From IMG/VR virus record IMGVR_UViG_2684623189_000006: a stretch of DNA of 38,661 nucleotides. The stretch is one strand, 5' to 3'. Position numbers and translations under genes: made by a program. Positions 10,145 through 37,518 of this stretch are shown piece after piece. This stretch comes from a virus (Duplodnaviria > Heunggongvirae > Uroviricota > Caudoviricetes). Numbering within the stretch: the first letter of the stretch is position 1; each line of letters starts with the position of its first letter. The notes below the pieces were generated by a model, which searched no databases, had not been told where the DNA came from, and was given only the letters and a program-made list of their open reading frames with translations.

Positions 10145-10717
10145 TCAGGGGGATTCATTACTCTTATTTGCCGGAAATTTTCTATAAATTGTGGAAACAC
10201 CCACATCAAAAATCAGTGCAATACGCTGTCTTGATTCTCCGGCCTCGAGTAAGCGTCCAATCTGTGCCCACTGTTCGGTGGTCAACTTAGGACGGCGTCC
10301 ACCTACTCTGCCTTTATCACGAGCTGCAGCCAGCCCCGCCCTGGTACGTTCAACTATCAGTTCGCGTTCCATTTCAGCCAGGGCCCCCATGACATGAAAA
10401 AAGAAACGGCCCATTGGGGTGCTGGTATCAATACTGTCAGTCAGGCTTCGGAAATTCACGCCACGCTGACGCAACTCTTCTATCAGCGTAACAAGATGCC
10501 GCATACTGCGCCCCAACCTGTCCAGCTTCCAGACAACCAGAGTGTCTCCAACCGATAGTGTCCTGAGCAGTTTTTTAAGCCCCGGTCTGTCGGGCTTAGT
10601 GCCACTGATTTTGTCCTCAAAAATCCGCTCACATCCCGCGCAGTTCAGTGCATTACGTTGCAAATCTGTGTTCTGGTCATTTGTTGACACGCGTACATAG
10701 CCAATAAGCATGATCAA
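10145..10717 (-). CDS. Serine recombinase, DNA invertase (Cin/Gin/Hin/Pin family)
   Basis: N-terminal GYVRVSTNDQ catalytic serine motif, resolvase-like core and C-terminal HTH (GVSTIYRKF). It sits next to a segment bounded by inverted 26-bp sites. Confidence 0.9.
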   Translation of the reverse strand: MIMLIGYVRVSTNDQNTDLQRNALNCAGCERIFEDKISGTKPDRPGLKKLLRTLSVGDTLVVWKLDRLGRSMRHLVTLIEELRQRGVNFRSLTDSIDTSTPMGRFFFHVMGALAEMERELIVERTRAGLAAARDKGRVGGRRPKLTTEQWAQIGRLLEAGESRQRIALIFDVGVSTIYRKFPANKSNESP

Positions 10718-10766
10718 TCCCCTGAATAAAAACCGGGGATGATGCCAGTTAGTCGTAATCGCTGCA

Positions 10767-10792
10767 TTTTCTTAAACGTTGGTTTAGGAGAA
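10767..10792. repeat. Invertase crossover site (left inverted repeat)
   Basis: ttttcttaaacgttggtttaggagaa is an imperfect inverted copy of the site at 12664-12689 and resembles gix/cix-type sites. Confidence 0.75.
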
Positions 10793-11137
10793 GCGGCGAA
10801 AAGGGATGTGGGCACAGGAGATAATCAGATACCGGATATGGGAGCATTCGCTTCTGGTTCGGGATGGTTCAGGCTACCAGGTGGATATATTGTTCAGTTT
10901 GGCACTTTTTCAGGAAACACGACCCGCTTTATCAGTGGACACTTCCCTATACCATTCCCTAATCAGCCGATGGTTTCAGTCAGTGTTATGTCTGATGCCG
11001 TTCAGTCAGACCCGTCGAATCCTGCCACGCAGGTTTTGTCTGTAAATTTTGAACATATCAGTAATTCAGCGTGGCGTGTGGCAACCAGTGATATCTCACA
11101 GCAATACAGATTCAGTTATATTTCGATAGGACGGTAG
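10793..11137 (+). CDS. Alternative tail-fibre C-terminal cassette (silent orientation, no own start)
   Basis: Open frame running in-frame from the crossover site; it would be fused to the constant part of H after inversion. Confidence 0.6.
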   Translation, partial: AAKRDVGTGDNQIPDMGAFASGSGWFRLPGGYIVQFGTFSGNTTRFISGHFPIPFPNQPMVSVSVMSDAVQSDPSNPATQVLSVNFEHISNSAWRVATSDISQQYRFSYISIGR

Positions 11138-11139
11138 AA

Positions 11140-11580
11140 ATGCAGAAATATATTTTCAGTGCCGATAAAAATGCGTTTTTCCCTGTGGAGCTTAAAATCG
11201 CTTATCAGGAATCCGGCGAATGGCCCGGTGATGGAATCGAAATTGACGACACTGTTGCCGCCGAATTTATGAAGGAAGCACCAGAAGGAAAATACAGAGG
11301 TGTCATCGACGGAATGCCTGCATGGATTGATATTCCACCGCCAACTCATGAGGAACAAATTGCCGCAGCCGAACTGGAAAAGCAGCAATTGATTAATCAG
11401 GTCAACGAATACATAAACAGTAAGCAATGGCCTGGTAAAGCGGCGATTGGTCGCCTGAAAGGTGAGGAACTGGCGCAATATAATTTGTGGCTGGATTATC
11501 TGGACGCACTGGAGCTGGTCGATACTTCCGGTGCGCCAGATATTGAATGGCCTACGCCTCCGGCAGTTCAGGCCAGATGA
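11140..11580 (+). CDS. Tail-fibre assembly protein (for alternative cassette)
   Basis: A 146-aa ORF with a tail-fibre-chaperone-like C-terminus (...DALELVDTSGAPDIEWPTPP), paralogous to the G-like protein on the other strand. Confidence 0.75.
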   Translation: MQKYIFSADKNAFFPVELKIAYQESGEWPGDGIEIDDTVAAEFMKEAPEGKYRGVIDGMPAWIDIPPPTHEEQIAAAELEKQQLINQVNEYINSKQWPGKAAIGRLKGEELAQYNLWLDYLDALELVDTSGAPDIEWPTPPAVQAR

Positions 11581-12145
11581 CGTCCGGCGCTGTGCTCGTA
11601 TCTGTTGCCGTCACCGCGTCAATATAATCCAGCACAGCGTTAAGTCGGGTGTTTTCTGGCTGCGTCAGCTTCCGCCCGGCCTGTAATTTCAGTTGAATCA
11701 GACTGATGGAAGCCATTGCAGCATCAATCAGCGACTGGCGCCGTGCTTCTGCCGCTTCTACTGCGGCGCTATGCTGTGCCTCGGTATCCGTCACCCATTT
11801 CTCACCATCCCATTTATCGTATGGCGTTAACGGTGAAAGCGTGACATAACCGTCTTTGATGGCACCGATATAATCCACTGTAACAGCTGCGCCATTTTCA
11901 GTTGAGTAAACGGTCTCATTGCGATGGTCTTCTTCATGGCTCCATCCCTTACCCGTAAATACTGCCACTTTTCCCGGAATGTTTTCGCTCGGGTCAATAC
12001 CAGTGGAACAGGCGGGCATACTTACTCCAGTATTAATATATTCATCAGACCAGCCGGTATATTCATACGTTACTGCATTATAATAAAAACAACGCATATC
12101 GCCCGGCACTGTAGCCAGCCCATTTTCATCAAAAACAGGTTTCAT
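11552..12145 (-). CDS. G: Tail-fibre assembly protein G
   Basis: A 197-aa ORF immediately after H. Its C-terminus (...DAVTATDTSTAPDVIWPELPEA) is paralogous to the ORF at 11140-11580. Confidence 0.8.
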   Translation of the reverse strand: MKPVFDENGLATVPGDMRCFYYNAVTYEYTGWSDEYINTGVSMPACSTGIDPSENIPGKVAVFTGKGWSHEEDHRNETVYSTENGAAVTVDYIGAIKDGYVTLSPLTPYDKWDGEKWVTDTEAQHSAAVEAAEARRQSLIDAAMASISLIQLKLQAGRKLTQPENTRLNAVLDYIDAVTATDTSTAPDVIWPELPEA

Positions 12146-23931: not shown

Positions 23932-24965
23932 TGGGAAAGAGTAAGAAGAACCGCGCTGCGTCGACGAAACAGATCCAGCATAAAAGCCAGACTTCAGCCG
24001 AAGCATTCAGCTTCGGTGATCCCGTTCCTGTTCTGGACCGCCGCGAACTGCTGGACTATGTGGAATGCGTACAGATGGATCGCTGGTATGAGCCACCAGT
24101 GAGTTTCGACGGACTGGCGCGAACCTTCCGCGCCGCCATACATCATAGCTCACCGATTGCAGTGAAGTGCAACATTCTGACCAGCACCTACATCCCTCAC
24201 CCGCTGCTCAGCCAGCAGGCTTTTTCGCGTTTTGTACAGGACTTTCTGGTTTTTGGTAACGCCTACCTGGAGAAACGCACGAACCGCTTCGGTGAAGTTA
24301 TAGCCCTTGAGCCTGCTCTGGCAAAATACACCCGACGCGGGTTAGACCTGGATACCTACTGGTTTGTGCAATACGGTATGACAACCCAGCCGTATCAGTT
24401 CACGAAAGGCAGCATTTTTCATCTGATGGAGCCGGACATCAACCAGGAGATCTACGGCCTGCCCGGTTATCTTTCTGCCATTCCGTCAGCCCTGCTCAAC
24501 GAGTCCGCCACGCTGTTCCGCCGGAAGTATTACATTAACGGCAGCCATGCGGGCTTCATCATGTACATGACCGACGCCGCGCAGAACCAGGAGGATGTGA
24601 ACAACCTCCGCAACGCAATGAAAAGTGCCAAAGGTCCTGGTAACTTCCGTAACCTGTTTATGTACTCGCCTAACGGCAAAAAGGATGGGCTTCAGATTAT
24701 CCCGTTGTCAGAAGTGGCGGCGAAGGATGAGTTCCTGAATATCAAGAACGTGAGCCGGGACGACATGATGGCGGCGCATCGTGTGCCGCCGCAAATGATG
24801 GGTATCATTCCCAACAATACCGGCGGTTTTGGGGATGTGGAAAAGGCCAGTCGCGTCTTCACAAGAAACGAAATAGTACCGTTACAAAAGCGATTGCTGG
24901 AGCTAAATGAATGGCTTGGTGAAGAGGTAGTCCGATTCAATCCATATGAGCTTAATACTGACTAG
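23928..24965 (+). CDS. Q: Portal protein Q
   Basis: A 345-aa ORF overlapping the P stop; P2 gpQ-like. Confidence 0.9.
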   Translation: MMGKSKKNRAASTKQIQHKSQTSAEAFSFGDPVPVLDRRELLDYVECVQMDRWYEPPVSFDGLARTFRAAIHHSSPIAVKCNILTSTYIPHPLLSQQAFSRFVQDFLVFGNAYLEKRTNRFGEVIALEPALAKYTRRGLDLDTYWFVQYGMTTQPYQFTKGSIFHLMEPDINQEIYGLPGYLSAIPSALLNESATLFRRKYYINGSHAGFIMYMTDAAQNQEDVNNLRNAMKSAKGPGNFRNLFMYSPNGKKDGLQIIPLSEVAAKDEFLNIKNVSRDDMMAAHRVPPQMMGIIPNNTGGFGDVEKASRVFTRNEIVPLQKRLLELNEWLGEEVVRFNPYELNTD

Positions 24966-24971
24966 CAAGCA

Positions 24972-24998
24972 TAAAAAAGCCCGGTATTACCGGGCTTC
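24972..24998. terminator. Bidirectional rho-independent terminator
   Basis: Stem gcccggta/taccgggc with an A-run on the plus strand, giving a T-run after the hairpin on the minus strand. Confidence 0.65.
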
Positions 24999-25020
24999 AT
25001 GCAAAACGCATTTCATGGAA

Positions 25021-25200
25021 TTAAGCAGCTTTCTGCTTTTCTTTGAGCTTACCATGCAGCTCATTTCCTTCAAATTTGCAGTCCTGCATCATATGTGGGG
25101 CCGCTTGAAGTAGTTCTTCCATCGCGACGCCCATACGGCTGAAAACATCAGATACTGAGTAATGCTTCTGAGCTTTCTTGTCACTATGCGTCATAGTCAT
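25021..25200 (-). CDS. Small hypothetical protein (59 aa; not in the supplied ORF track)
   Basis: ATG at 25200 preceded by an AAGAGGAAAT Shine-Dalgarno. It translates to MTMTHSDKKAQKHYSVSDVFSRMGVAMEELLQAAPHMMQDCKFEGNELHGKLKEKQKAA and is followed by the terminator. Confidence 0.5.
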   Translation of the reverse strand: MTMTHSDKKAQKHYSVSDVFSRMGVAMEELLQAAPHMMQDCKFEGNELHGKLKEKQKAA

Positions 25201-25279
25201 GATTTCCTCTTAGAGGTCAAGCCTCATCATCCGGTAGTGGATGTTTGGCGCAGCATTGTAGCACTGCGCAAAAATTTAT

Positions 25280-25879
25280 CTACTGTTTCTTAGAAGTAAT
25301 GTAGCGTCTTACTACATCAGTTATTGTAGCAAAAGGTGCCGAAAGCAAGCTTATATCACCTTTAAAACCAAATTTTTTATAGTGGTCAGCAACTTTTTGA
25401 TTCAGGGCTTCAGGGATCCGAATCTCTTGACACCCAACCGCGCTACCAAAAAGATATACCGCCCACAATGTAACCATGAACATGTTGCCGTAAAGAGGGT
25501 GCTCTACGTCATCATCTTTCACAAAAGATTCCACAAAATGGATCTCTATGACTCCAGCGTCCTCGTCAAAGGTGCACATAGCTGCGCCAGAAGGGATATG
25601 CCTAAGTGGCCCCGCAAGGAGCTTCAAACAAAATTCAAACTTATCACTTCGATTGCCAAACCGAGAAAAACCATAATCCCATTCTAGCTGAGCGTATCCT
25701 GTGGTCAGGATCACATAGTCTTCATCACTGATTGGACCAACAGCCAACGGCATCTTCAAAGTATCGAGGAGAAACTGAAGGTTACTTATACTTTGACTGG
25801 CAATCTGCTCTAAGTTCAATTCTCTGTCCTTCATGCTTACGACATTAAAGGCGACTACTTTAATGTCATTTTCGGACAA
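25280..25879 (-). CDS. Hypothetical protein (199 aa), cargo between Q and cos
   Basis: Long ORF with no recognisable family. The start is uncertain: TTG at 25879 or an internal ATG. Confidence 0.5.
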   Translation of the reverse strand: MSENDIKVVAFNVVSMKDRELNLEQIASQSISNLQFLLDTLKMPLAVGPISDEDYVILTTGYAQLEWDYGFSRFGNRSDKFEFCLKLLAGPLRHIPSGAAMCTFDEDAGVIEIHFVESFVKDDDVEHPLYGNMFMVTLWAVYLFGSAVGCQEIRIPEALNQKVADHYKKFGFKGDISLLSAPFATITDVVRRYITSKKQ

Positions 25880-26104
25880 AGACTATAAATCTTTAATGAA
25901 ACAATAGCAGAACCTTTTAAAGGTTTGCTACCTATCACTGCAACTTGTGACAGAACACTAAATCTACAGCCAACTCCGGAACACATTCAACATTTATTTA
26001 AATCCCTTCAAACAAGATTGCACAAAAACGCGCCCTCCCTTTCAGAAGAAAACCATCAGCGGGCCTGAGGCTAAGTGAATTTTACTATTTCAACCCGCGG
26101 CGTG

Positions 26105-26130
26105 CGCTCGTATCCCCGCCACGCCTGCCC
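26105..26130. other. Probable cos site (cohesive-end region)
   Basis: The minus strand reads GGCGTGGCGGGGA..., which matches the first 13 nt of the P2/186 cohesive end as I recall it. Confidence 0.5.
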
Positions 26131-26505
26131 GCTTTATGTAGTGGTTTTCATGCACCTGCATGACATGAGCAAAAGCCCGCCAGTTCTGGCGGGCCTTAAC
26201 AAAAACGAGCCTCAAACGTTCATGCAAACTCATGCAGCATATACATACACTACATCAACAGCATCCATTGCTATCATTTCCAGTTCGCTTCCTACAACAT
26301 CATTGCGAATAGTTATGTTACCAAGCGGCTTTTTCATACCTTTTCGGCATGACACTTCAGACGCACCAATACTGACGTGTAATGCTTCCCCCGCAACGTC
26401 AACCCACTTAATGGTAATTTAATGTAGTTGCATGAGACGAAAAAATCTCCATAGTTGACAGACTCTATGAATGCAGCATCACTAGCAAGCATGAATAAAC
26501 ATGCA

Positions 26506-27210
26506 TCATCTAACAGATACTTTTGCATAAATCAAAGGCCTATCCGAAGAGCCATTTTTACGTACGACCACTCCACTGATATCATGGTTTTTACTAAGAT
26601 CTCGTAATGCGGCGCACAATGCCTTGTTGACATACCCTAGATGATTGTCGTTTTTCGTTACTAATATGGCCAGCGGATCAACAGTATTGGTATCTTCATT
26701 GCGCAATATGACTTCATCACCAATTGATATCTCGTCAAGAGCTAGACGCCCTTCCTTAATCATGTGTCTCGTTCCGGCGACCTCCATGACATAATCAAAA
26801 GGTGGCCGAATAGAAGACAAGTCTGGGACAAAATAAAAACCATCACTAGCCACTTTTCCGCCAGTACAAGCGAGCAAAACGAAGTCATTCTCTCTAAAAT
26901 CAGCAGGAAGACGAAACGTCAGCAAGTAATCGGCAAAATCTTCTCTTTTCCTGGAGGGTAACCTTCTTGAAAAGGTTTGCATAACGTCTTTGCGATGAGT
27001 CGTAACTTTTATGTCAAAAGCAGGAAAACCGTGAAAGCCTTTATCCCCAGCTTTAGCAAAATCTTTGCTATCCGTAAGATAATTAAACTCGTAGCCTTCA
27101 GACTCATCTTGAAGAAGTTCACCAACGACATAGCGAGAGCCGCCGTCGGTCGGTTGCCATGTCAGTAAGAGCCTACTTGGCATGGGAATTTTTTCTATTA
27201 AGATAGTCAT
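26506..27210 (-). CDS. HIRAN-like domain protein (234 aa), third gene of cargo operon
   Basis: The C-terminal region (DPLAILV...LGYVNKALCAALRDL...GVVVRKNG) resembles the HIRAN fold motif. Its ATG overlaps the upstream stop (ATGA) and has an AAGGTG Shine-Dalgarno. Confidence 0.5.
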   Translation of the reverse strand: MTILIEKIPMPSRLLLTWQPTDGGSRYVVGELLQDESEGYEFNYLTDSKDFAKAGDKGFHGFPAFDIKVTTHRKDVMQTFSRRLPSRKREDFADYLLTFRLPADFRENDFVLLACTGGKVASDGFYFVPDLSSIRPPFDYVMEVAGTRHMIKEGRLALDEISIGDEVILRNEDTNTVDPLAILVTKNDNHLGYVNKALCAALRDLSKNHDISGVVVRKNGSSDRPLIYAKVSVR

Positions 27211-28118
27211 GAAGTAACACCTTTAATCAGTTCAATACGCATGTTTGTTACACGAACAATCCATGCAGCACGTTCTCTAGTCAGCGGAACAGGGCAGTTT
27301 ATTTCCGTCAACTCCGCAAAAGTTGAGTCCCAAAAGTCATGGTTCAAACGAGCCAGTCTTTCAGCTACCCGCTGTTTTAATTCTTCTTTTTTATCACAAA
27401 GTTCTTTGATTAACTCTAAATGACCTAATCTCTGATACTCATCTTTGCCCAGAGTTTTACGCAAATGATGCTTTCCCCGGCTAACATGCTCCCTGAGTCT
27501 ATGATCGGTCCAATCAGCAACATGTTCCGGAAAGCGTTCGTAGCATAAGCTCGTACCATTATCGAAAAATGGTGCAAGCTGACACTCGCTGGTTAAAGGG
27601 GAGAAGATAAACCCCCAGTTTTCTTGATGTCTATCTGTATTACCTATTACTGCGTCAAAGAGAGCCATATTCTCCAACCACTCAACATAGTCAACTTTAA
27701 GAGCTTTCGCGATAATCCTCAGCCCTTCAATGGAATGCTTAGCTCCTTTCTCACGATCAAAATTTGGATCTCTTCGAACAAAGTAATCACCAGCGGGAGC
27801 AAATTTCTCATAATCTTTATGATGAAACCACTCAATGAGGGCCCCGCAAAACGTATGCCCCAAATCATTAGTCTTTAACGAAGGAACTGCTTTGGGGACA
27901 TTAAAACCAAGCTGCAATCCAATCCTGTAGGCAACGATCTCACACCAAAATTGATCTGGGTATTTTTTAATACTTCTCTTAAAAAGATACGGCCACGATG
28001 CTTTGATACCATGGGGGGCAACATCAGGGGAAATAACCAATGCCTTAGAGCGAGCACCAACAGGATACTGTGCGAAAACATCTAGCTCAGTCCAATAGGT
28101 TACATCTAAGCAATCCAT
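27207..28118 (-). CDS. HipA-like / PI3K-PI4K-like protein kinase-fold protein (303 aa)
   Basis: Carries the catalytic-loop-like motif DAVIGNTDRHQENWGFIF (D-x-H-x-x-N) typical of HipA-like Ser/Thr kinases. Confidence 0.55.
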   Translation of the reverse strand: MDCLDVTYWTELDVFAQYPVGARSKALVISPDVAPHGIKASWPYLFKRSIKKYPDQFWCEIVAYRIGLQLGFNVPKAVPSLKTNDLGHTFCGALIEWFHHKDYEKFAPAGDYFVRRDPNFDREKGAKHSIEGLRIIAKALKVDYVEWLENMALFDAVIGNTDRHQENWGFIFSPLTSECQLAPFFDNGTSLCYERFPEHVADWTDHRLREHVSRGKHHLRKTLGKDEYQRLGHLELIKELCDKKEELKQRVAERLARLNHDFWDSTFAELTEINCPVPLTRERAAWIVRVTNMRIELIKGVTS

Positions 28119-28133
28119 AGCTAAGTCCTATAT

Positions 28134-28688
28134 TTATTTTTTATTTAAATTCATATAGATGTGAGAAACCTGTGCGATCTGAAATAAAACATCATCGAAT
28201 GCTGTGTGCCTAATGCCAGTGAAATTTTTATCAGCATGAGAAAAAATTCCTTTGCTTTCACCAAGTGCTAAGATGGTTCTAACGTCAAGAGTATCTCTGA
28301 ATGACCATGGGCAATCCAGACCCGCCTGTAACAGGGCATGATGCATGATCGTGCAGTCAAACTCTTTCCCGTTTCCCCACACTTTTACTCGGCCAGTACG
28401 ATTATGAAGAATAAATGCCACAAATTCATTCAGAACCTCTAAAAGGTCCTTAGTGCCATCAAAATTTTCGTTTTTAGCTTCAGTACTTTGATTCATCCAC
28501 CACTTTACAGTAGAGGGGGCAATGGTTCTGCCTGCTTGTTCATGATCAAGCGAAATAACTTGATAGAAACCCGGACCAATCTCGCCAGTCTCCGGCACGA
28601 AAAAAGCCGCACCAACTGAAAGGATATAAGCTGTTTTTTCAACATCCAATGTTTCTATATCTAACATTACATGATTCATAAGAAGCAA
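28134..28688 (-). CDS. DEDDh-type 3'-5' exonuclease (DnaQ-like fold), first gene of cargo operon
   Basis: N-terminal MLDIETLD (Exo I motif) and C-terminal HTAFDDV (H-x4-D, Exo III motif). The start is uncertain: TTG at 28688 or ATG at 28679. Confidence 0.6.
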   Translation of the reverse strand: MLLMNHVMLDIETLDVEKTAYILSVGAAFFVPETGEIGPGFYQVISLDHEQAGRTIAPSTVKWWMNQSTEAKNENFDGTKDLLEVLNEFVAFILHNRTGRVKVWGNGKEFDCTIMHHALLQAGLDCPWSFRDTLDVRTILALGESKGIFSHADKNFTGIRHTAFDDVLFQIAQVSHIYMNLNKK

Positions 28689-28852
28689 TTGAAACCATTT
28701 AGTAAAAATTGAAAGCTATCACCACATTAATGCATGGCATGTACATTTGTGGACGAAAACAAGTATTCTGATTATAACCCAAGTGAAAAGCTCAAGTGTC
28801 GTAACTTTCACTCGGTTGTTTTCAGTTTCGAAAAACTACTGGGAAGATCCAT

Positions 28853-29023
28853 CTAGTGGTTGTATTCATGAGCGCGAATTCTCGCCATCAGCTCATCAGT
28901 CAACTCAGAAACCCACTGCAGAGCCAGCCCCTTCTCTTCATCACTACACTCACTAGCCGCTACAAGCTTAAGAAAAAAATCAATGCGCTGGAGCTTCAAA
29001 GACTCCAAAAAATAGTCCTGCAT
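28853..29023 (-). CDS. Small SOS-regulated protein (56 aa; not in the supplied ORF track), possible Tum-like antirepressor
   Basis: ATG at 29023 preceded by an AGGAGGAAAG Shine-Dalgarno. It translates to MQDYFLESLKLQRIDFFLKLVAASECSDEEKGLALQWVSELTDELMARIRAHEYNH. A perfect LexA box lies about 45 bp upstream. Confidence 0.45.
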   Translation of the reverse strand: MQDYFLESLKLQRIDFFLKLVAASECSDEEKGLALQWVSELTDELMARIRAHEYNH

Positions 29024-29065
29024 CTTTCCTCCTATGACACCACAAGCAATACTGTATGCACAACC

Positions 29066-29085
29066 ACTGTTTATATTTACAGTAT
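29066..29085. promoter_or_regulatory. LexA (SOS) box
   Basis: aCTGTttatatttACAGta matches CTGT-N8-ACAG exactly and is AT-rich inside. It sits in the A-distal intergenic region upstream of the small minus-strand ORF. Confidence 0.6.
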
Positions 29086-29175
29086 ATAATAATCTTACTG
29101 ATGTAAAACGTTTTTTACGTTCATCAGCCTGATATGCCTGGTATTATTAAGAGCACGAATTGTTAACCCACGTGA

Positions 29176-31590
29176 TTAATACAGGTTCCGCCACTTATCA
29201 TCTTCCTGCAAACGCTGGTTCCGATAGAAGATACGCAGGCCTGCTCCTGACGGAATACTGCCACCGCGAAGGAGTAAATCGACCTCTTTCTCGCTGCCAT
29301 CAAATCCTCTTGACTTCAGTTCATAGACGAGCTGCTGACGCTGATACTCTGTAATTCGCTGTTTGTAGTCTTTACGCCGTTTCGGTTTCACCAGGCGTAA
29401 TCTTGCTGCCAGTTCCTGGCGCTCTTTTTTGCTCATACTATGCAGGTAATCGTGCAACTCCTTGTCATCCATACAGGTAATGTCAGTTCTGGTATCCCCA
29501 TCTGTTGATTTATCTTTCTCCTGTTGGTTCAAATTTTCAGCAAGGGGACAGTTATTGCCACGAGTCCAAGGGGCGCAAGCGCCCTGGTCGGCTGCCGCCT
29601 CCTGAACGTCAACGGCCTTACGAACCATTTTCCACTTCACTGCATGAGTACAAATCTTGCCCTCTGCAATGGGTGACCAGATGCCATAAATACGAATACC
29701 GTGATCGCCATAGGCGGTCGGCTCTTCGTTAATTTCATAAGCTGTTCTGATAAGGTGATATTTGCGGGGAACCAGTACGCCGCCCTGCTTCATAATGTAG
29801 GTGGCAAAACAACCAGCATCAGCAGCAGCCAGGATTGCATCAAGGCGCGGGTTATCCAGTACCGGCGCACCTGCTTTTTTGTCCCCCTGTTGCCTTGCCG
29901 CCTGACCAGCCAGCAATCGCAGTTCACGGTAAGCCTGACGCCCCGGAATGCCAAAGAAGCGGAATTGCTGAACACGATGCAGAGACGCCCAAGCATTAAC
30001 GTATTCAGCATTATCACGCAGGGATTTCCCCGTTTCCTTGCTGATCTCGCCAGCCAGACCACGCCCGTCCATGTTCTTACTGATGTATTTCGCGATGTAG
30101 CTTGTTGGCGTACCTTTGCGCGGGTTAATCAACTCAGACTTAAAGCGCGGCCCAGTGTTATTGCCCAGCTCCTCGCGGTCTTCACGGATGGCAAACTTAC
30201 GCAGTAATGCAGTGATGGCGCGGCGGTCTTTTTTGCGCATAAAACACAACAGGTGCCAGTGAACTGTACCGTCATGATGCGGCTCAGCCACCCGCACGCC
30301 ATACCAGCGCAATCCGGCTTTGTGCATCGCCTTACGAAATGCAGCAAACATGCCGACCAGATAATCACTACTTTGTCTTACCGTCGCATTTGTCCAGGTT
30401 GGGTTGGGCCTGCCGTTATTTAGCGTGGAATGGAAACGTGACGGACAGGTGATGGTGTAGAAAACGGCGCAGTCACCGCGCATTTCCGCGATAAGCTCCA
30501 GGCCTTTAACACAGGCCATCATCTCATTGCGGCGATGCGCAGGGTTGCTGCTGCTGGCGTTTACCACATCCTCCATGTCCAGCGTGTCGCCGTCTTCGTT
30601 CACCAGTTCATGAGAACGAAAAAACTCCAGCGACTTACGGCGCTGCTCACGTTTATGCATCACGGCTTCATAGCTGACATAGGGAGATGCTTTTTTGCTG
30701 ACCAGGCAAACAGCACGCAACTGCTCTTCCCGCCATTCGCAACGCATCTTCCATAATTTCCGGTACCACCAGTCGGCGCACAACATACGCGCCAGCGAAC
30801 CCGGAATGAGTTCATAGGGCACGGGTTTACGGCGGTTTCTTTTCCGGCGGAGTTGATCAAACGCAGGCGGGATGACATCCAGACGCAGGGTTTCCGCTGC
30901 CACCTTTTCCCATGTCTTGCGGATTTCTTCTGGCTTAACGTCATCGGTGACATACAAATCGCCACAAGCTGCATCAAGGCACATGCTCATATGCGCAGCG
31001 ACAAGGGTAGACAAGCGTTTCACCTGATCCTGACTCATTTCAGGCAGGATCAGCAGGCCGTCCAGCCCTTCATGGCTTGCCATAAAGCGAAAAGAAGTGG
31101 ATAGCTGACTGTCGCGTACATGCTCCAGTCGTTCCAGACATGGCTTAATCGTCTCACGCAAATAGCGGGAATAAGCCTTTGGCCTGCCTAGGCTGCTGAA
31201 GTATTCAATACGTTGCAACAGCGGCTTGCTGATATGGGAAGGCTGGGCATTGACGTCCGCCAGAATGACCATATCTGGATTAAAACGCTGCTGCTCATGC
31301 GCCAGCTTTGCCCGGCTAATGAGCTTATCCTGCTCCATTTCGCGTTGGACAGGATCACGGGATTCATTAAAGAAATAACGCTCCCAGACCTGATCACTCA
31401 GTGCCTCGCGGCGCAGTTGTTCCTGCTCGTTATCGGCAGCGTACAGAGTGATCAGGTTTGAAAGCGCAGAAACCGGCGCAACTTCCGCCGGGTCCAGATA
31501 AGGGTTAATAGCCTTTTTCGGGCTGTTCCATGAGAATGCTGCGGCGGCCTCGTTAAAGCCGCTGCAGTTGTTCATATCAGCATGGCTCAT
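29176..31590 (-). CDS. A: Replication initiation protein A (rolling-circle nickase)
   Basis: An 804-aa ORF; P2/186 gpA-like sequence and position. Confidence 0.85.
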
Positions 31591-32443
31591 GCACGCACTC
31601 CGTACACGGCAGAACTATCCACGCCACGCGAAGGCTCAAATCCCACCCAGCAGCGCGCCCAGAAACAGCGATGATTTCTGTTGCAGATTTACTCTCACCA
31701 GCTGCTACGCCGATGCTGCGTTTTGCCTTGATGTAGTGGTGAGTAAAATTGCGATACAGCGAACGGATCAGGGATGTGTCACTGTTAGAAACAATGACCG
31801 GATGTCCTTCTGATGACCGATGTTCAAGAACGGATGCCAGGTGATACTGGTCATCTTCAGTGAAGCCGTCAGTGTGATAACCGGAAAACGTGCCGTCATA
31901 CGGCGGATCGCAATACACCACATCCCCCGCCTTCAACATCGCCAGCGTTTCATCAAAGCTGGCGCAGATAAACGTTGCCCGCTGGGCTTTTTCTGCAAAT
32001 GCGCGAATTTCTTTTTCTGGGAAATACGGATTTTTATAATTACCGTAGGGAATGTTGAAATGCCCGCTCTTGTTATAGCGACATAAACCACGGTAACCGT
32101 GACGATTGAGATACAGGAAATATACCGCTTTCATGAAATCAGTAATTTCATTTGAGTAATTAAACTCCTGCCTTATGTTGTAATAAGCCACCTCCCTGTT
32201 TGCTTCCTTAAATAAAACTCTGGCGCGAGATATAAACGATTCACAATCAGCGGCAACCTTTTTATAGAGGTTGATTAAATCAGGATTAATATCCGCAACC
32301 AGATAGCTTGGATAATCCGTCTCCATCATCACAGCACAGGAACCCGCGAAAGGTTCAACCAGTCGCGGGCCAGCAGGAAGGTGTTTTTTCAGTTCGGACA
32401 TAATTGCGGTTTTATTTCCCGCCCATTTCAGGATGGTGCTCAT
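31577..32443 (-). CDS. DNA adenine methyltransferase (Dam-like, D12 class)
   Basis: N-terminal LKWAGNK and DPPY catalytic motifs. Start taken at the ATG at 32443 (MSTILKW), overlapping the upstream stop (ATGA). The 3' end overlaps the A start by 14 nt. Confidence 0.8.
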
Positions 32444-33855: not shown

Positions 33856-34022
33856 TTTGACTTTCTCCGTTTCCCCGTGGTCAATTCAGACAGCAATTCA
33901 TCTTGTGAACGGCACGGATGCCAGCGTTTACCATCCTCACCCATGATCCAGCCGTGACCGTAGTGCATTGCCGGGCTTTGTTTTACCAGCAGCGATGCAA
34001 ATGATGGTTCTTTCGTCAGCAT
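33726..34022 (-). CDS. Hypothetical small basic protein downstream of cII (Fil/Dhr position); 3' part doubtful
   Basis: ATG at 34022 overlaps the cII stop. The N-terminal 60 aa look protein-like; the C-terminal part overlaps the 74-aa ORF. Confidence 0.35.
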   Translation of the reverse strand: MLTKEPSFASLLVKQSPAMHYGHGWIMGEDGKRWHPCRSQDELLSELTTGKRRKSKCMQRKVKWFISFVTEGRVIQYLKMICSVVIRRCRAMAVTFSR

Positions 34023-35812: not shown

Positions 35813-36841
35813 ATGGATTTTATAAAAAAACTCGAATTTGGAAATTATACTCTCCGTTTTGGTGATGATGTTTTGCTAGACTATTATGATGAAATTGTTT
35901 TCCCCTCTTTTTTGGAGATGGCAAACATCCGCAGAATATCTGACAAATCAGAGTTCTTTTTCATTGATACTGAATGCGTCATACTTGACGAAGAAGCAAC
36001 ACCCCCAGTACTCGGAATTAAAGGTCGGATTATTAAGAATACATTATTAACCAGAGAACAAGTATTTGATGGTGCTGATTTGGTTGAAGATCATCAAGAG
36101 CTTGAAACAGCCCCGAGCTCTTTCTTTCTTCTAATATTAAACACTCACAGATTAATTCTTTGCAAGGAAGTTAGTGGTGCTCCCACAATTCAAAACTTTC
36201 AGTCAACAAGTCAGTGTTTCTTAAACATAGAATATGAAAAATACATATCTCATTTATACGAAACCGCACAAGAAGAACGCAAAGAAAACCCTGACTTACC
36301 TCGAGTCACTAAAAAAAGCTTACGGAACGAAATCAAACGCCCGAAGCTAAGAATAACGCCGTTAACTGACAAACAAAGCCTAGAGCAATTTATTGATAAT
36401 TTTAATAAAATCCAAAATGTCTCAGTAAAACTTCTCCCTACAAATCAAGAAGAAATTGATAACGACGAATTTTGGGAGTCACTTGAAAGTGCCGGAGACG
36501 AAATGGGAAGTATTTCTACATCTATTCGCTTTTCAAACACCGATTCAGGCTTGAATCATGGTGCTGTTTTAGAACAACTCACATCAGCAACCAGATTGGC
36601 TAATTCAGGAATAAATATTAAAGGATATGATGACAATGGTGATATAATCAAAGGTAGCAATGATGACTTTGTTTTGTTAAGTGAGATGAATGAATTATCA
36701 AAGGATACGGTAGTAGCTGCAAATGAAAGTTATGAGCGGTATGAAAATCTTGTAGAAGAAGGTAAGATATCTCTACCCCGTTCTCTTTCACAAAAGACGA
36801 TTAGAATTATTAGCAATATATATGAAAGGTTTGGTCGATGA
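35813..36841 (+). CDS. Hypothetical protein (342 aa), AT-rich cargo gene 1 between cI and int
   Basis: Low-GC ORF with a GAGG Shine-Dalgarno and no recognisable family. Its stop overlaps the next start (ATGA). Confidence 0.6.
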   Translation: MDFIKKLEFGNYTLRFGDDVLLDYYDEIVFPSFLEMANIRRISDKSEFFFIDTECVILDEEATPPVLGIKGRIIKNTLLTREQVFDGADLVEDHQELETAPSSFFLLILNTHRLILCKEVSGAPTIQNFQSTSQCFLNIEYEKYISHLYETAQEERKENPDLPRVTKKSLRNEIKRPKLRITPLTDKQSLEQFIDNFNKIQNVSVKLLPTNQEEIDNDEFWESLESAGDEMGSISTSIRFSNTDSGLNHGAVLEQLTSATRLANSGINIKGYDDNGDIIKGSNDDFVLLSEMNELSKDTVVAANESYERYENLVEEGKISLPRSLSQKTIRIISNIYERFGR

Positions 36842-37518
36842 TAAATAAAATAGATGCTAAAGAAATAACCAAAGAGAAAAACCTTTGGGATGTTTACTTG
36901 CTCTGCAAACGGATTACTATTAGTACATTCCATATTTGTATTTTGCTCACAGCATCTATTTTTTTATTAACAAACTCTTTTTTTATTGAGAAGGATATGT
37001 CTCATTTAGTATCTGACATTAGAAACTGGGCTTTGATTGGTTTTAACTTTGCAGTGACAACCTTAGGTTTTCTCATTGCTGGTTTCACAATATTTGCAAC
37101 ACTATCCAAACCCGAGATGTTTCTTCAGATGATGTCAATACAACATAAAAAAACACAGATGCCCACGTTAAAATATAACTTTATGGCATTTATGAAAGTT
37201 TTCATCTCATTTATTACGTTTACTTTCATTTATCTAATAATAATTCTCTTTTGTCAAAAAGATGGAATAATTGGCAATATAATTGATTTATTTCCATATT
37301 CAAAATCGATAAAAGAATTAATTATTAAATTTGGATACTGTGTTATAGGGACTAGCCTTATTTACTTAGTGTTAGTAGTAAAGACATTTATTTTTAATAT
37401 CTACGCTATCATAATGAATAATATTCGTTGGGAGTTATACATTAAAAGAAAAGAACAAAGACTTTCCAGTAACAAAGAGACAATCAATAAAAACATAGAT
37501 GTAACTAAAATGCATTAA
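36838..37518 (+). CDS. Hypothetical integral membrane protein (226 aa, about 4 TM helices), AT-rich cargo gene 2
   Basis: Four long hydrophobic segments; translationally coupled to the upstream gene. Confidence 0.6.
   Translation: MINKIDAKEITKEKNLWDVYLLCKRITISTFHICILLTASIFLLTNSFFIEKDMSHLVSDIRNWALIGFNFAVTTLGFLIAGFTIFATLSKPEMFLQMMSIQHKKTQMPTLKYNFMAFMKVFISFITFTFIYLIIILFCQKDGIIGNIIDLFPYSKSIKELIIKFGYCVIGTSLIYLVLVVKTFIFNIYAIIMNNIRWELYIKRKEQRLSSNKETINKNIDVTKMH

What the first reader, a model, noticed from the sequence alone, without database searches (positions are those of the whole stretch)
26506..28688. Three-gene cargo operon (DEDDh exonuclease, HipA/PI3K-like kinase, HIRAN-like protein) in the cos-proximal variable locus: candidate undescribed anti-phage system
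Three same-strand genes sit between the cos-like site and gene A, where P2 itself carries old/tin and where P2-like prophages are known to exchange defence cargo. They are tightly linked, with a 15-bp gap and then an ATGA overlap. The predicted products are a DnaQ-like 3'-5' exonuclease (MLDIETLD and HTAFDD motifs), a protein with a HipA/PI3K-like catalytic loop (GNTDRHQEN), and a protein with a HIRAN-like C-terminal domain. The locus is visibly more AT-rich than the flanking phage backbone. I do not recognise this gene combination as a named system.
Basis: partly seen in the sequence, partly recalled or inferred. Interest (0 to 1): 0.85.

Follow-up and report, generated by a model that had tools for sequence, protein, structure and literature searches.

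The report
Prophage kinase–HIRAN module plus exonuclease
In the defence-cargo slot of a P2-like E. coli prophage sit a HipA-type kinase and its HIRAN-domain partner, a pair already catalogued as a candidate but untested anti-phage toxin-antitoxin module, preceded by a T4-DexA-like exonuclease that travels with them only in P2-like phages, so this is a new three-gene variant of a known kind rather than a wholly new system.

Summary
Three minus-strand genes (exonuclease, kinase, HIRAN protein; 15-bp gap, ATGA overlap) lie in AT-rich cargo between gene A and a cos-like site of a complete P2/186-like prophage.

The kinase and HIRAN pair is not undescribed. It is the hipIN module of Gerdes et al. 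2021 (HipI kinase plus HipN, a HipS-like and HIRAN protein) and PADLOC candidate PDC-M03. DefensePredictor lists this exact kinase and a 234-aa HIRAN protein encoded next to it as predicted defence genes. I found no experimental test.

The exonuclease is a T4-DexA / Rv2179c-family DEDDh enzyme. About 100 other hipIN loci lack it, and most of its relatives stand alone. It is nevertheless cargo rather than P2 backbone: 0 of 80 sibling phages carry it. It accompanies hipIN in six diverged P2-like lineages with congruent trees, once beside the integrase and once before a fused kinase–HipS–HIRAN gene. All three genes are under purifying selection. The linked exonucleases carry Arg where stand-alone relatives have the Trp that DexA needs for 5hmC DNA.

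Most likely this is an abortive-infection kinase switch gated by DNA 3' ends, with an accessory 3'-end-trimming nuclease.

The parts
28134..28679 (-). DexA / Rv2179c-family DEDDh 3'-5' exonuclease, 181 aa from the ATG at 28679 (alternative starts: TTG 28688, ATG 28667)
   Evidence: Pfam PF16473 5e-50. The profile hits T4 DexA 8KEL at 7e-15. The AF2 model has pLDDT 92 and its best Foldseek hit is DexA, TM 0.8. D7, E9, D108, H158 and D163 are invariant. The signature Arg128 sits at the DexA W152 position.
27207..28118 (-). HipI-type short HipA-family Ser/Thr kinase, the putative toxin/effector (303 aa)
   Evidence: Pfam HipA_C 3.6e-10 and PADLOC PDC-M03A 4e-36. The profile hits CtkA at 3e-13 and Legionella HipT at 2e-4. 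The catalytic loop G159-N167 (GNTDRHQEN) and D186 are invariant in 24 homologues. An AGGA Shine-Dalgarno lies 8 nt upstream.
26506..27210 (-). [quoted passage not shown]
28680..28852 (-). Intergenic leader upstream of the exonuclease, with a perfect TATAAT at 28776-28771 but no well-spaced -35
   Evidence: Sequence read; the consensus scan found no promoter or terminator here. The stretch is 87-93% identical to L088, inside the shared block. Expression signals remain unresolved.
28853..29023 (-). orf56, a backbone gene that marks the left edge of the exchanged block
   Evidence: phrog_698 1.6e-33. Present in 80 of 80 sibling P2-like phages. The high-identity block shared with L088 starts here.
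26171..26194 (-). Terminator-like hairpin GCCCGCCA-GAAC-TGGCGGGC followed by TTTT, about 310 nt downstream of the HipN stop
   Evidence: Read directly. The scan's T-run rule missed it.
26107..26125 (-). cos-like site, the right boundary of the cargo slot
   Evidence: GGCGTGGCGGGGATACGAG, inside the block 26263-26087 that is conserved at 80-87% in the diverged phages L088, L082 and L090. The identification as cos is by resemblance recalled from memory.

Best explanation
This is a cargo operon of a P2/186-like prophage made of a hipIN-type toxin-antitoxin-like kinase switch and an accessory exonuclease.

Shown here:
- The kinase is a short HipA-family kinase with an intact catalytic loop.
- The downstream protein is a HipS-like domain fused to a HIRAN domain.
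- The upstream protein is an intact T4-DexA-family DEDDh 3'-5' exonuclease.
- The three genes are variable cargo rather than phage backbone.
- They are inherited and exchanged together in P2-like phages, under purifying selection.

Inferred by analogy:
- When an infecting phage produces free single-stranded 3'-OH DNA ends or short DNA fragments, the HIRAN domain binds them and the kinase is released.
- The kinase phosphorylates an essential translation factor, probably an aminoacyl-tRNA synthetase as HipA and HipT do. The cell stops growing and the infection aborts.

My commitment for the exonuclease, the least certain step (about 0.3 on its own): it trims or clears 3' ssDNA ends and short oligonucleotides. 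It thereby sets the activation threshold or resets the sensor, rather than acting as a stand-alone killer of modified phage DNA.
For: Identity of the parts:
- establish the domain assignments.

hipIN is an obligate pair in defence contexts:
- Kinase and HipN are adjacent in 77 of 80 species-representative loci.
- 12 of these lie directly after type I R-M hsdM-hsdS genes.
- The pair is PADLOC candidate PDC-M03. DefensePredictor gives log-odds of 5.5 and 7.1, above its strict cut-off of 4.
- A second hipIN type occupies the same hotspot in sibling phages.
- A HipA-family kinase system, DS-6 or HipAD, has been validated as a defence whose protection requires a predicted kinase catalytic residue.

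Hotspot:
- The A-to-portal interval takes 68 different lengths in 80 phages whose A protein is at least 97% identical.

Linkage of the exonuclease:
- It is absent from all 80 sibling phages, so it is cargo.
- It sits directly upstream of hipIN, on the same strand and closely spaced, in six lineages that are only 38-64% identical. All lineages with visible flanking genes are P2-like.
- One of these triads lies next to the integrase instead of gene A (L283). Another precedes a fused kinase-HipS-HIRAN gene in phage 899.
- The exonuclease and kinase+HipN trees are congruent.
- dN/dS is 0.24-0.29 for the exonuclease, 0.20-0.22 for the kinase and 0.12-0.14 for HipN.
- One homogeneous 87-99% identity block, 29020-26485, is shared with a phage whose gene A 3' end is only 60-72% identical.

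Role of the exonuclease:
- All 21 hipIN-linked exonucleases have Arg at the DexA W152 position, against Trp in 69 of 86 stand-alone ones. In metagenomes, 0 of 56 non-Arg exonucleases have a kinase, against 2 of 3 Arg-type ones.
- The W152A mutant of DexA loses activity on T4 DNA but keeps activity on unmodified DNA.
- DexA prefers ssDNA, and its closest structural relative is the dinucleotidase Rexo2.
- An unrelated DEDD enzyme specific for DNA dinucleotides sits next to HipA and HIRAN genes in a third of 93 Gram-positive cases. A dinucleotidase cannot be a DNA-killing effector, which favours a ligand-clearing role.
- Gerdes et al. proposed HIRAN sensing of phage DNA ends.
Against: - No phenotype has been measured. 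Toxicity, neutralisation, the trigger and the kinase target are all by analogy.
- About 100 hipIN loci lack the exonuclease. These include close relatives (L005, L286), a P2-like phage (L102) and the alternative hipIN type in sibling P2 phages. hipIN evidently works without it.
- The exonuclease-positive loci sit in one region of the kinase tree, so there may have been as few as one to three acquisition events. The co-occurrence counts are not phylogenetically independent.
- The exonuclease family is mostly stand-alone, both in lambdoid prophages and on Serratia and Gibbsiella chromosomes.
- A stand-alone E. coli homologue, EcD, is reported to protect against T4.
- The Arg signature also occurs in three exonucleases that are not linked to hipIN.
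- No exonuclease row from that contig turned up in the stored, truncated part of the DefensePredictor table; I searched by accession and locus tag guessed from another genome's annotation.
- No convincing promoter was found.
- HIRAN could instead serve for operator binding and autoregulation.
Confidence: 0.55

Rival explanations
1. Two independent modules are stacked in one hotspot. The exonuclease is a self-sufficient gene, either an HREX/EcD-like nuclease that attacks modified phage DNA or a phage DNA-metabolism accessory. hipIN is a separate two-gene system. They are neighbours that were transferred together, with no mechanistic coupling.
For: Most relatives of the exonuclease stand alone: 78 of 80 viral loci, 605 phage records and chromosomal copies in Serratia and Gibbsiella. 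EcD alone is reported to protect E. coli from T4. hipIN is complete without the exonuclease in about 100 loci, including in the same P2 hotspot. PADLOC defines PDC-M03 as two genes, and the exonuclease hits no PADLOC model. Defence systems commonly cluster.
Against: In a hotspot that turns over extremely fast (68 interval lengths in 80 near-identical phages), the exonuclease was seen only with hipIN. It stayed directly upstream through divergence to about 40% identity, through a relocation (L283) and through a kinase-HipN fusion. The trees are congruent. The linked exonucleases lack the Trp reported as essential for 5hmC DNA cleavage. A second, unrelated DEDD nuclease family shows the same adjacency in Gram-positives.
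Confidence: 0.25
2. hipIN is a plain addiction or stabilisation toxin-antitoxin module, or a persistence module, with no anti-phage role. It keeps the prophage or its cargo in the population. The HIRAN domain is only the DNA-binding part used for autoregulation, replacing HipB's HTH, and the exonuclease is unrelated.
For: HipA-family modules are classical TA and persistence loci, and Gerdes et al. describe hipIN first as a putative TA module. hipIN has no HTH partner, so some DNA-binding function is needed for autoregulation. Nothing has been tested.
Against: The location is a slot where P2 carries old and tin, and where many cargos have been shown to be defensive (abstract of Rousset et al. 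2022). hipIN is embedded after type I R-M hsdM-hsdS genes in 12 loci. Two independent predictors call it defensive. The related HipAD kinase system has been validated as a defence. HIRAN domains bind DNA ends rather than specific operators.
Confidence: 0.12
3. The operon serves the phage's own lytic cycle or counter-defence. Under this reading the exonuclease degrades host DNA or immune signalling nucleotides and the kinase reprogrammes the host. It would be expressed by read-through from the early B-A operon.
For: The genes have the same orientation as gene A, and no terminator was detected between A, orf56 and the exonuclease. T4 DexA scavenges host DNA. No lysogenic promoter was identified.
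Against: The cargo is absent from 80 of 80 sibling phages, so it is dispensable for the lytic cycle. hipIN is mostly chromosomal and lies in R-M islands. A kinase paired with a HipS-like neutraliser is the architecture of a held-in-check toxin.
Confidence: 0.05

Closest known systems
hipIN module (HipI kinase + HipN putative antitoxin; Gerdes, Baerentsen and Brodersen 2021, mBio, PMC8262856)
   Same: [quoted passage not shown] The proposed DNA-end sensing and abortive-infection logic is the same.
   Different: Described as bicistronic, with no exonuclease and no prophage location mentioned. It has never been tested experimentally. I did not place this kinase in their clade XI tree.
PADLOC-DB candidate system PDC-M03 (A = HipA-like kinase, B = HIRAN protein)
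   Same: Both window proteins match at 4e-36 over nearly their full length, and their genes are adjacent.
   Different: It is a two-gene candidate. The exonuclease matches no PADLOC model. The window pair is a divergent subtype: sibling phages carry a subtype that scores 2e-122 and 3e-93.
HipL (single-chain kinase-HipS-like-HIRAN; Gerdes 2021)
   Same: It has the same three domains. A close relative of this locus in Escherichia phage 899 is exactly this fusion (519 aa) and is also preceded by the exonuclease. Fused forms of about 540 aa are among the nearest family members and in phrog_26212.
   Different: The window has the split, two-gene form.
diDNase-HipA-HIRAN gene clusters of Actinomycetes and Clostridia (NAR 2025, PMC11706625)
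   Same: A DEDD-superfamily 3'-5' nuclease acting on DNA lies directly adjacent to HipA-domain and HIRAN-domain genes on mobile elements near defence genes. The functional link is explicitly left open.
   Different: The nuclease there is an NrnC-like, dimeric, deoxydinucleotide-specific enzyme in Gram-positives. Here it is a DexA / Rv2179c-like DEDDh enzyme in P2-like phages of Proteobacteria.
T4 DexA and the bacterial homologue EcD ('HREX'; NAR 2025, PMC12153337)
   Same: Same Pfam family and fold, with the same DEDDh catalytic residues. EcD is an E. coli homologue reported to defend against T4.
   Different: The DexA W152 position is Arg in every hipIN-linked exonuclease. EcD is described as a single gene with no partner genes mentioned. 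I could not obtain the EcD sequence (HAK9828821.1) to compare directly.
HipBST and HipAD / DS-6 (validated or characterised HipA-family systems)
   Same: In HipBST a separate HipS protein neutralises a short kinase. HipS is the best structural match of the HipN N domain. In DS-6/HipAD, mutating a predicted kinase catalytic residue abolishes phage defence in E. coli.
   Different: HipBST has an HTH HipB and no HIRAN domain. The HipAD partner is a DUF3037/DUF1829 protein. Neither has an exonuclease.

Membership tests
hipIN (Gerdes 2021) | Short HipA-homologous kinase lacking N-subdomain 1, with conserved core kinase motifs | tested here: met
   303 aa against about 440 for HipA. HipA_C scores 40.3 bits against a cut-off of 30.5. 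The GNTDRHQEN loop and D186 are invariant. The profile hits HipT(Lp) and CtkA.
hipIN (Gerdes 2021) | [quoted passage not shown] | tested here: met
hipIN (Gerdes 2021) | Kinase falls in the HipI subclade of clade XI | not tested
Assignment rests on architecture only.
hipIN (Gerdes 2021) | Kinase is toxic and is neutralised by HipN | not testable with these tools
   Needs expression experiments. It has also not been tested in the literature I could search.
PADLOC PDC-M03 | Adjacent genes match the PDC-M03A and PDC-M03B models | tested here: met
   PDLC04340 at 4.1e-36 (residues 1-298) and PDLC04352 at 3.9e-36 (residues 11-225); the genes overlap by 4 nt.
DexA / Rv2179c-like DEDDh exonucleases (PF16473) | Profile match above the curated threshold, with all five DEDDh residues | tested here: met
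   170 bits against a cut-off of 27. D7, E9, D108, H158 and D163 are invariant. T4 DexA is the best sequence-profile and fold match.
DexA / Rv2179c-like DEDDh exonucleases (PF16473) | 3'-5' exonuclease activity and its substrate | not testable with these tools
   Biochemistry is needed.
HREX (EcD-type 5hmC-DNA-specific defence exonuclease) | Trp equivalent to DexA W152, required for cleavage of 5hmC DNA | tested here: not met
   Arg in the window and in all 21 hipIN-linked exonucleases; Trp in 69 of 86 stand-alone relatives.
HREX (EcD-type 5hmC-DNA-specific defence exonuclease) | Acidic residue equivalent to D169, and loss of the tetramerisation residue D90 | not tested
   I only had DexA residues 1-162 from the printed alignment, and I had no EcD sequence.
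diDNase-HipA-HIRAN cluster (NAR 2025) | The nuclease is an NrnC-like diDNase with the HHAxFD EXOII motif and a C-terminal Tyr | tested here: not met
   The window nuclease is PF16473 with an H-x4-D motif (HTAFDD) and a DexA fold. It resembles the cluster in organisation but is not a member.
HipL | Kinase, HipS-like and HIRAN domains in one polypeptide | tested here: not met
   There are two ORFs with an ATGA overlap. The relative in phage 899 does meet this feature.
Cargo of the P2 gene-A-to-cos (old/tin) hotspot | Lies between gene A and cos, and is variable among otherwise near-identical phages | tested here: met
   The position is shown. All three genes are absent from 80 of 80 phages whose A protein is at least 97% identical, and the interval length ranges from 257 to 6198 bp.

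The most novel reading that the evidence does not exclude
Free DNA 3' ends or very short DNA fragments act as a danger signal for a kinase-based immune switch, and hipIN-type systems repeatedly recruit a dedicated DEDD 'nano-nuclease' to control that signal. Two unrelated DEDD families were recruited independently: NrnC-like deoxydinucleotidases in Gram-positives and Arg-signature DexA-like enzymes in P2-like phages. Under this reading the exonuclease sets the ligand level seen by the HIRAN sensor, much as ring nucleases or Orn-type enzymes tune nucleotide second messengers. The window would then hold an E. coli-native example of a sensor, kinase and signal-clearing enzyme circuit.
Probability: 0.22. 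Interest if true: 0.8.

Novelty: new variant of a known kind. Interest (0 to 1): 0.5.

Why it matters
hipIN / PDC-M03 is a recurrent, computationally flagged but experimentally untouched candidate immune module. A 2021 hypothesis that a HIRAN domain senses phage DNA ends to unleash a HipA-type kinase is still untested. This locus offers a native E. coli, prophage-borne version that can be cloned as a block of about 2.9 kb.

It comes with natural comparators: the split and fused forms, and a sibling hipIN type without the exonuclease in the same hotspot. It also provides a clear residue signature (Arg versus Trp) that separates hipIN-linked exonucleases from stand-alone ones.

If the exonuclease proves to be coupled, it would explain the puzzling adjacency of deoxydinucleotidases to HipA and HIRAN genes in Gram-positives. 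It would also add a new logic, nuclease-tuned sensing of DNA ends, to bacterial immunity. If it is not coupled, the result is still useful. The locus is then an ordinary stack of a DexA-like nuclease and PDC-M03, and annotation pipelines should not report a new system.

Tried and rejected
- **The exonuclease is a conserved P2 backbone gene next to the hotspot.** Rejected: 0 of 80 sibling phages have it, whereas orf56 is present in 80 of 80.
- **The exonuclease is a universal third component of hipIN.** Rejected: it is absent from 76 of the 77 species-representative loci with an adjacent kinase and HipN (three more were truncated), and from most viral loci. No other conserved upstream nuclease was found; the only other recurrent neighbour is type I R-M hsdM/hsdS.
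- **The exonuclease belongs to the published diDNase family.** Rejected: the Pfam family and motifs differ.
- **The exonuclease is needed for a P2-like phage to tolerate its own hipIN.** Weakened: L227, L231, L275 and L102 carry hipIN without it.
- **Searches that gave nothing:**
  - NCBIfam had no hit above its cut-offs.
  - Rfam found nothing across 24900-29300.
  - The promoter scan found no site upstream of the operon, and overall counts were below the shuffle expectation.
  - The remembered P2 cos 19-mer did not match.
  - Megablast against the phage collection found nothing.
  - The Yersinia ruckeri kinase P0002 was not on record for a context look-up, although L090 appears to represent that lineage.
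  - No paper reporting an experimental test of hipIN or PDC-M03 turned up, and the 'HipAD' text search returned only unrelated papers.
  - Supplements of the 2026 P2/P4 survey are not held.
- **Caveat on the trees.** The neighbour-joining trees are quick distance trees without support values. I use them only for coarse congruence.
Full report
**1. Observation**

The window is a complete P2/186-like prophage inserted next to ybjL/grxA. It is identical to one in E. coli SF-173. On the minus strand, downstream of the replication gene A (29176-31590) and a small backbone gene orf56 (28853-29023), lie three ORFs:
- an exonuclease at 28688/28679..28134;
- a kinase at 28118..27207;
- a HIRAN protein at 27210..26506.

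The gap between the first two is 15 bp. The last two overlap by ATGA, read directly. GC drops to 0.37-0.44 across 25000-29200, against 0.52-0.55 in the flanks.

About 310 nt after the last stop codon there is a strong hairpin followed by TTTT (26194-26171). Next comes a cos-like GGCGTGGCGGGGATACGAG (26125-26107), inside a DNA block conserved among diverged P2-like phages.

**2. What the proteins are**

- *Exonuclease.* Pfam places it in PF16473 (Rv2179c-like, 5e-50). A profile of it and its relatives hits T4 DexA (PDB 8KEL) at 7e-15. A confident AF2 model (pLDDT 92) has DexA as its best fold match (TM 0.8), followed by RNase T, ERI, Orn and REXO2; the CBASS exonuclease Cap18 also appears. The five DEDDh residues are invariant.
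- *Kinase.* It matches HipA_C (3.6e-10). It is a short HipA-family enzyme whose catalytic loop and Mg-binding Asp are invariant in 24 homologues. Its profile hits CtkA and Legionella HipT.

**3. The kinase and HIRAN pair is already described**

It has exactly the architecture that Gerdes et al. (2021) named hipIN: a HipI kinase plus HipN, a HipS-like and HIRAN putative antitoxin. A single-chain version is called HipL. They proposed that HIRAN recognises DNA ends of invading phages or replication intermediates and thereby activates the kinase to abort infection. They stated that this remained to be tested.

- PADLOC-DB lists the pair as candidate system PDC-M03, and both window proteins match at 4e-36.
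- The supplementary tables of DefensePredictor (Science 2026) list this exact kinase (WP_021523856.1, log-odds 5.49). They also list the adjacent 234-aa HIRAN protein (WP_021563624.1, log-odds 7.11). Both are labelled 'predicted novel defense gene', above the paper's strict cut-off of 4.
- The same paper validates a different HipA-family kinase system (DS-6 or HipAD) as a defence whose protection requires a predicted kinase catalytic residue.
- I found no experimental test of hipIN itself.

**4. Comparative genomics of hipIN**

- The kinase is rather isolated. Its nearest relatives are 93% and then 52% identical, and the rest are 45% or less.
- In 80 species-representative genomes (32-45% identity), kinase and HipN are adjacent in 77; the other three are cut at contig ends.
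- Twelve of these loci lie immediately downstream of type I R-M hsdM-hsdS genes, a classic defence-island position.
- The family is of modest size: 239 clusters at 50% identity with E ≤ 1e-30 among 1.84 billion representatives, including fused forms of about 540 aa.

**5. Is the exonuclease part of it?**

*Against a general role.* Only one of the 80 genome loci (L009) has the exonuclease. Most viral hipIN loci lack it. Relatives of the exonuclease are very common on their own:
- 605 phage records, all below 60% identity;
- 78 of 80 viral loci with no kinase;
- conserved chromosomal copies next to alanine-racemase and D-amino-acid-oxidase-family genes (dadX/dadA by my reading) in Serratia and Gibbsiella, at 46-49% identity.

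*For linkage in P2-like phages.*
1. The exonuclease is cargo, not backbone. Among 80 phages whose A protein is at least 97% identical to the window's, the A-to-portal interval takes 68 different lengths (257-6198 bp). orf56 is in all 80 and the exonuclease in none.
2. The order exonuclease, kinase, HipN, on one strand and closely spaced, recurs in six lineages that are only 38-64% identical to each other. The six lineages are:
   - the window group (81-100%);
   - L090;
   - L283/L284;
   - L096/L310;
   - L009/L092-L094;
   - Escherichia phage 899.

   All lineages with visible flanks are P2-like phages whose A proteins are only 30-35% identical to the window's.
3. In L283 the triad lies beside the integrase rather than between A and the portal gene.
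4. In phage 899 the exonuclease precedes a single 519-aa kinase-HipS-HIRAN fusion.
5. Distance trees of the exonuclease and of kinase+HipN show the same groupings.
6. dN/dS against 94-96% identical copies is 0.24-0.29 for the exonuclease, 0.20-0.22 for the kinase and 0.12-0.14 for HipN.
7. Against phage L088, one homogeneous block of 87-99% identity spans 29020-26485 (orf56 through HipN). The adjacent 3' end of gene A is only 60-72% identical. This indicates that the cassette was exchanged as a unit.

*Limits.* The exonuclease-positive loci occupy one region of the kinase tree, interleaved with exonuclease-negative marine loci. There may have been only one to three gains, followed by losses. 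Sibling P2 phages L227, L231 and L275 carry a second hipIN subtype in the same hotspot without any exonuclease (PDC-M03 A at 2e-122, B at 3e-93). L102 is another P2-like phage with hipIN and no exonuclease in the 733 bp available upstream. The exonuclease is therefore an optional accessory of one hipIN clade, not a requirement.

**6. A signature that separates linked from stand-alone exonucleases**

A 2025 study of T4 DexA reports that W152 and D169 are needed for cleavage of 5hmC-containing T4 DNA but not of unmodified DNA. It also reports that a stand-alone E. coli homologue, EcD, protects against T4 ('HREX').

- At the DexA W152 position, all 21 hipIN-linked exonucleases have Arg (motif PW-x-F-R). 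Of 86 stand-alone relatives, 69 have Trp and only 2 have Arg.
- In an independent metagenome sample, 0 of 56 non-Arg exonucleases with enough downstream DNA had a kinase, against 2 of 3 Arg-type ones. Both positives are P2-like loci.
- The Arg exceptions are a phage replication-module gene, a fusion protein and one lambdoid-type locus.
- These counts are not phylogenetically independent. They do show that the linked enzymes form a distinct subfamily and fail one defining feature of the HREX model.

**7. Mechanism**

*Shown:* the architecture, the intact catalytic sites, the co-inheritance of the three genes and their defence-type contexts.

*Inferred by analogy:*
- HipN's HipS-like domain neutralises the kinase, as HipS does for HipT.
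- The HIRAN domain binds 3'-OH DNA ends, as in HLTF. Gerdes et al. note that most bacterial HIRAN domains lack the Phe needed for duplex binding, which suggests ssDNA.
- Release of the kinase blocks translation through phosphorylation of an aminoacyl-tRNA synthetase, as with HipA and GltX or HipT and TrpS.

*Exonuclease.* I commit, with modest confidence, to a role in trimming or clearing the 3'-end or oligonucleotide ligand, which would set the threshold, suppress noise or reset the sensor.
- DexA prefers ssDNA, and its nearest structural relative is the dinucleotidase Rexo2.
- The only other nuclease known next to HipA and HIRAN genes is a strictly deoxydinucleotide-specific enzyme. Such an enzyme cannot be a DNA-destroying effector.

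The main rival is simple stacking of two independent modules.

**8. Expression signals are unresolved**

The consensus scan finds no promoter upstream of the exonuclease, and no terminator between A, orf56 and the operon. A perfect TATAAT at 28776-28771 lacks a properly spaced -35. Rfam finds nothing in the region.

**9. Verdict**

It is a candidate anti-phage cargo operon. Its core is a known, named but untested candidate (hipIN, or PDC-M03). The three-gene form with a DexA-like, Arg-signature exonuclease in P2-like phages is, as far as I could find, undescribed. I class it as a new variant of a known kind, of moderate interest. The locus is rare: 6 of 5426 complete E. coli genomes have a match, 5 of them full-length.

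Noticed in passing
window 35813-36841 and 36838-37518 (+ strand): Two overlapping hypothetical genes (342 and 226 aa) lie between the CI repressor and the integrase. They have no Pfam or PADLOC hit. This may be another cargo or defence slot of the prophage. The related phage L283 has a different unknown 284-aa gene at the same place.
   Followed up: partly
window 25021-25879 (- strand): orf199 (25280-25879, phrog_4350, no Pfam or PADLOC hit) and orf59 (25021-25200) sit between the cos-like site and the portal gene. They are present in only 1 of 80 sibling phages. They are therefore also variable cargo, of unknown function, on the other side of cos.
   Followed up: partly
window 24961-24978 and 26481-26498: An 18-nt direct repeat, ACTAGCAAGCAT(A/G)AA(A/T)AA, occurs at the portal stop codon and again 8 nt after the HipN stop. 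The second copy lies exactly where identity with phage L088 breaks. It could be a recombination scar from cassette exchange, or chance; I estimate roughly 0.2-1 such pairs by chance in 4.4 kb.
   Followed up: no
L227 6812-8463 (also L231 and L275): Sibling P2-like phages with an A protein at least 97% identical carry a second, divergent hipIN subtype in the same hotspot. The kinase is 29% identical and matches PDC-M03A at 2e-122; the partner matches PDC-M03B at 3e-93. It is preceded by a DinI-like gene and a 141-aa ORF, with no exonuclease.
   Followed up: yes
L122 4646-6205 (Escherichia phage 899, PV533660; the same match coordinates in Yersinia phage GMG73): The gene annotated 'hypothetical protein' (519 aa) is a fused kinase-HipS-like-HIRAN (HipL-type) protein, directly preceded by a DexA-like exonuclease annotated '3'-5' exoribonuclease'.
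   Followed up: yes
L017, L019, L022, L028, L030, L043 and six other genome loci, directly upstream of the kinase: hipIN is inserted immediately after type I restriction-modification hsdM-hsdS genes in 12 proteobacterial genomes.
   Followed up: partly
window 31587-32443 and 33867-34022 (- strand): RefSeq annotates the prophage Dam-type DNA adenine methylase as frameshifted, and a Fil-family gene as a truncated pseudogene. The prophage may be partly decayed.
   Followed up: no
L289-L291 (Serratia and Gibbsiella chromosomes): The nearest non-phage relatives of the exonuclease (46-49% identity, Trp-type) are single chromosomal genes in a conserved neighbourhood with an alanine racemase, a DAO-family oxidase and a FadR-type regulator. 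They look like a housekeeping paralogue of the DexA family.
   Followed up: partly
window 10145-12145: A recombinase-family (invertase-type) gene lies next to oppositely oriented tail-fibre assembly genes and a short gp53-like fragment. This suggests an invertible tail-fibre host-range switch.
   Followed up: no
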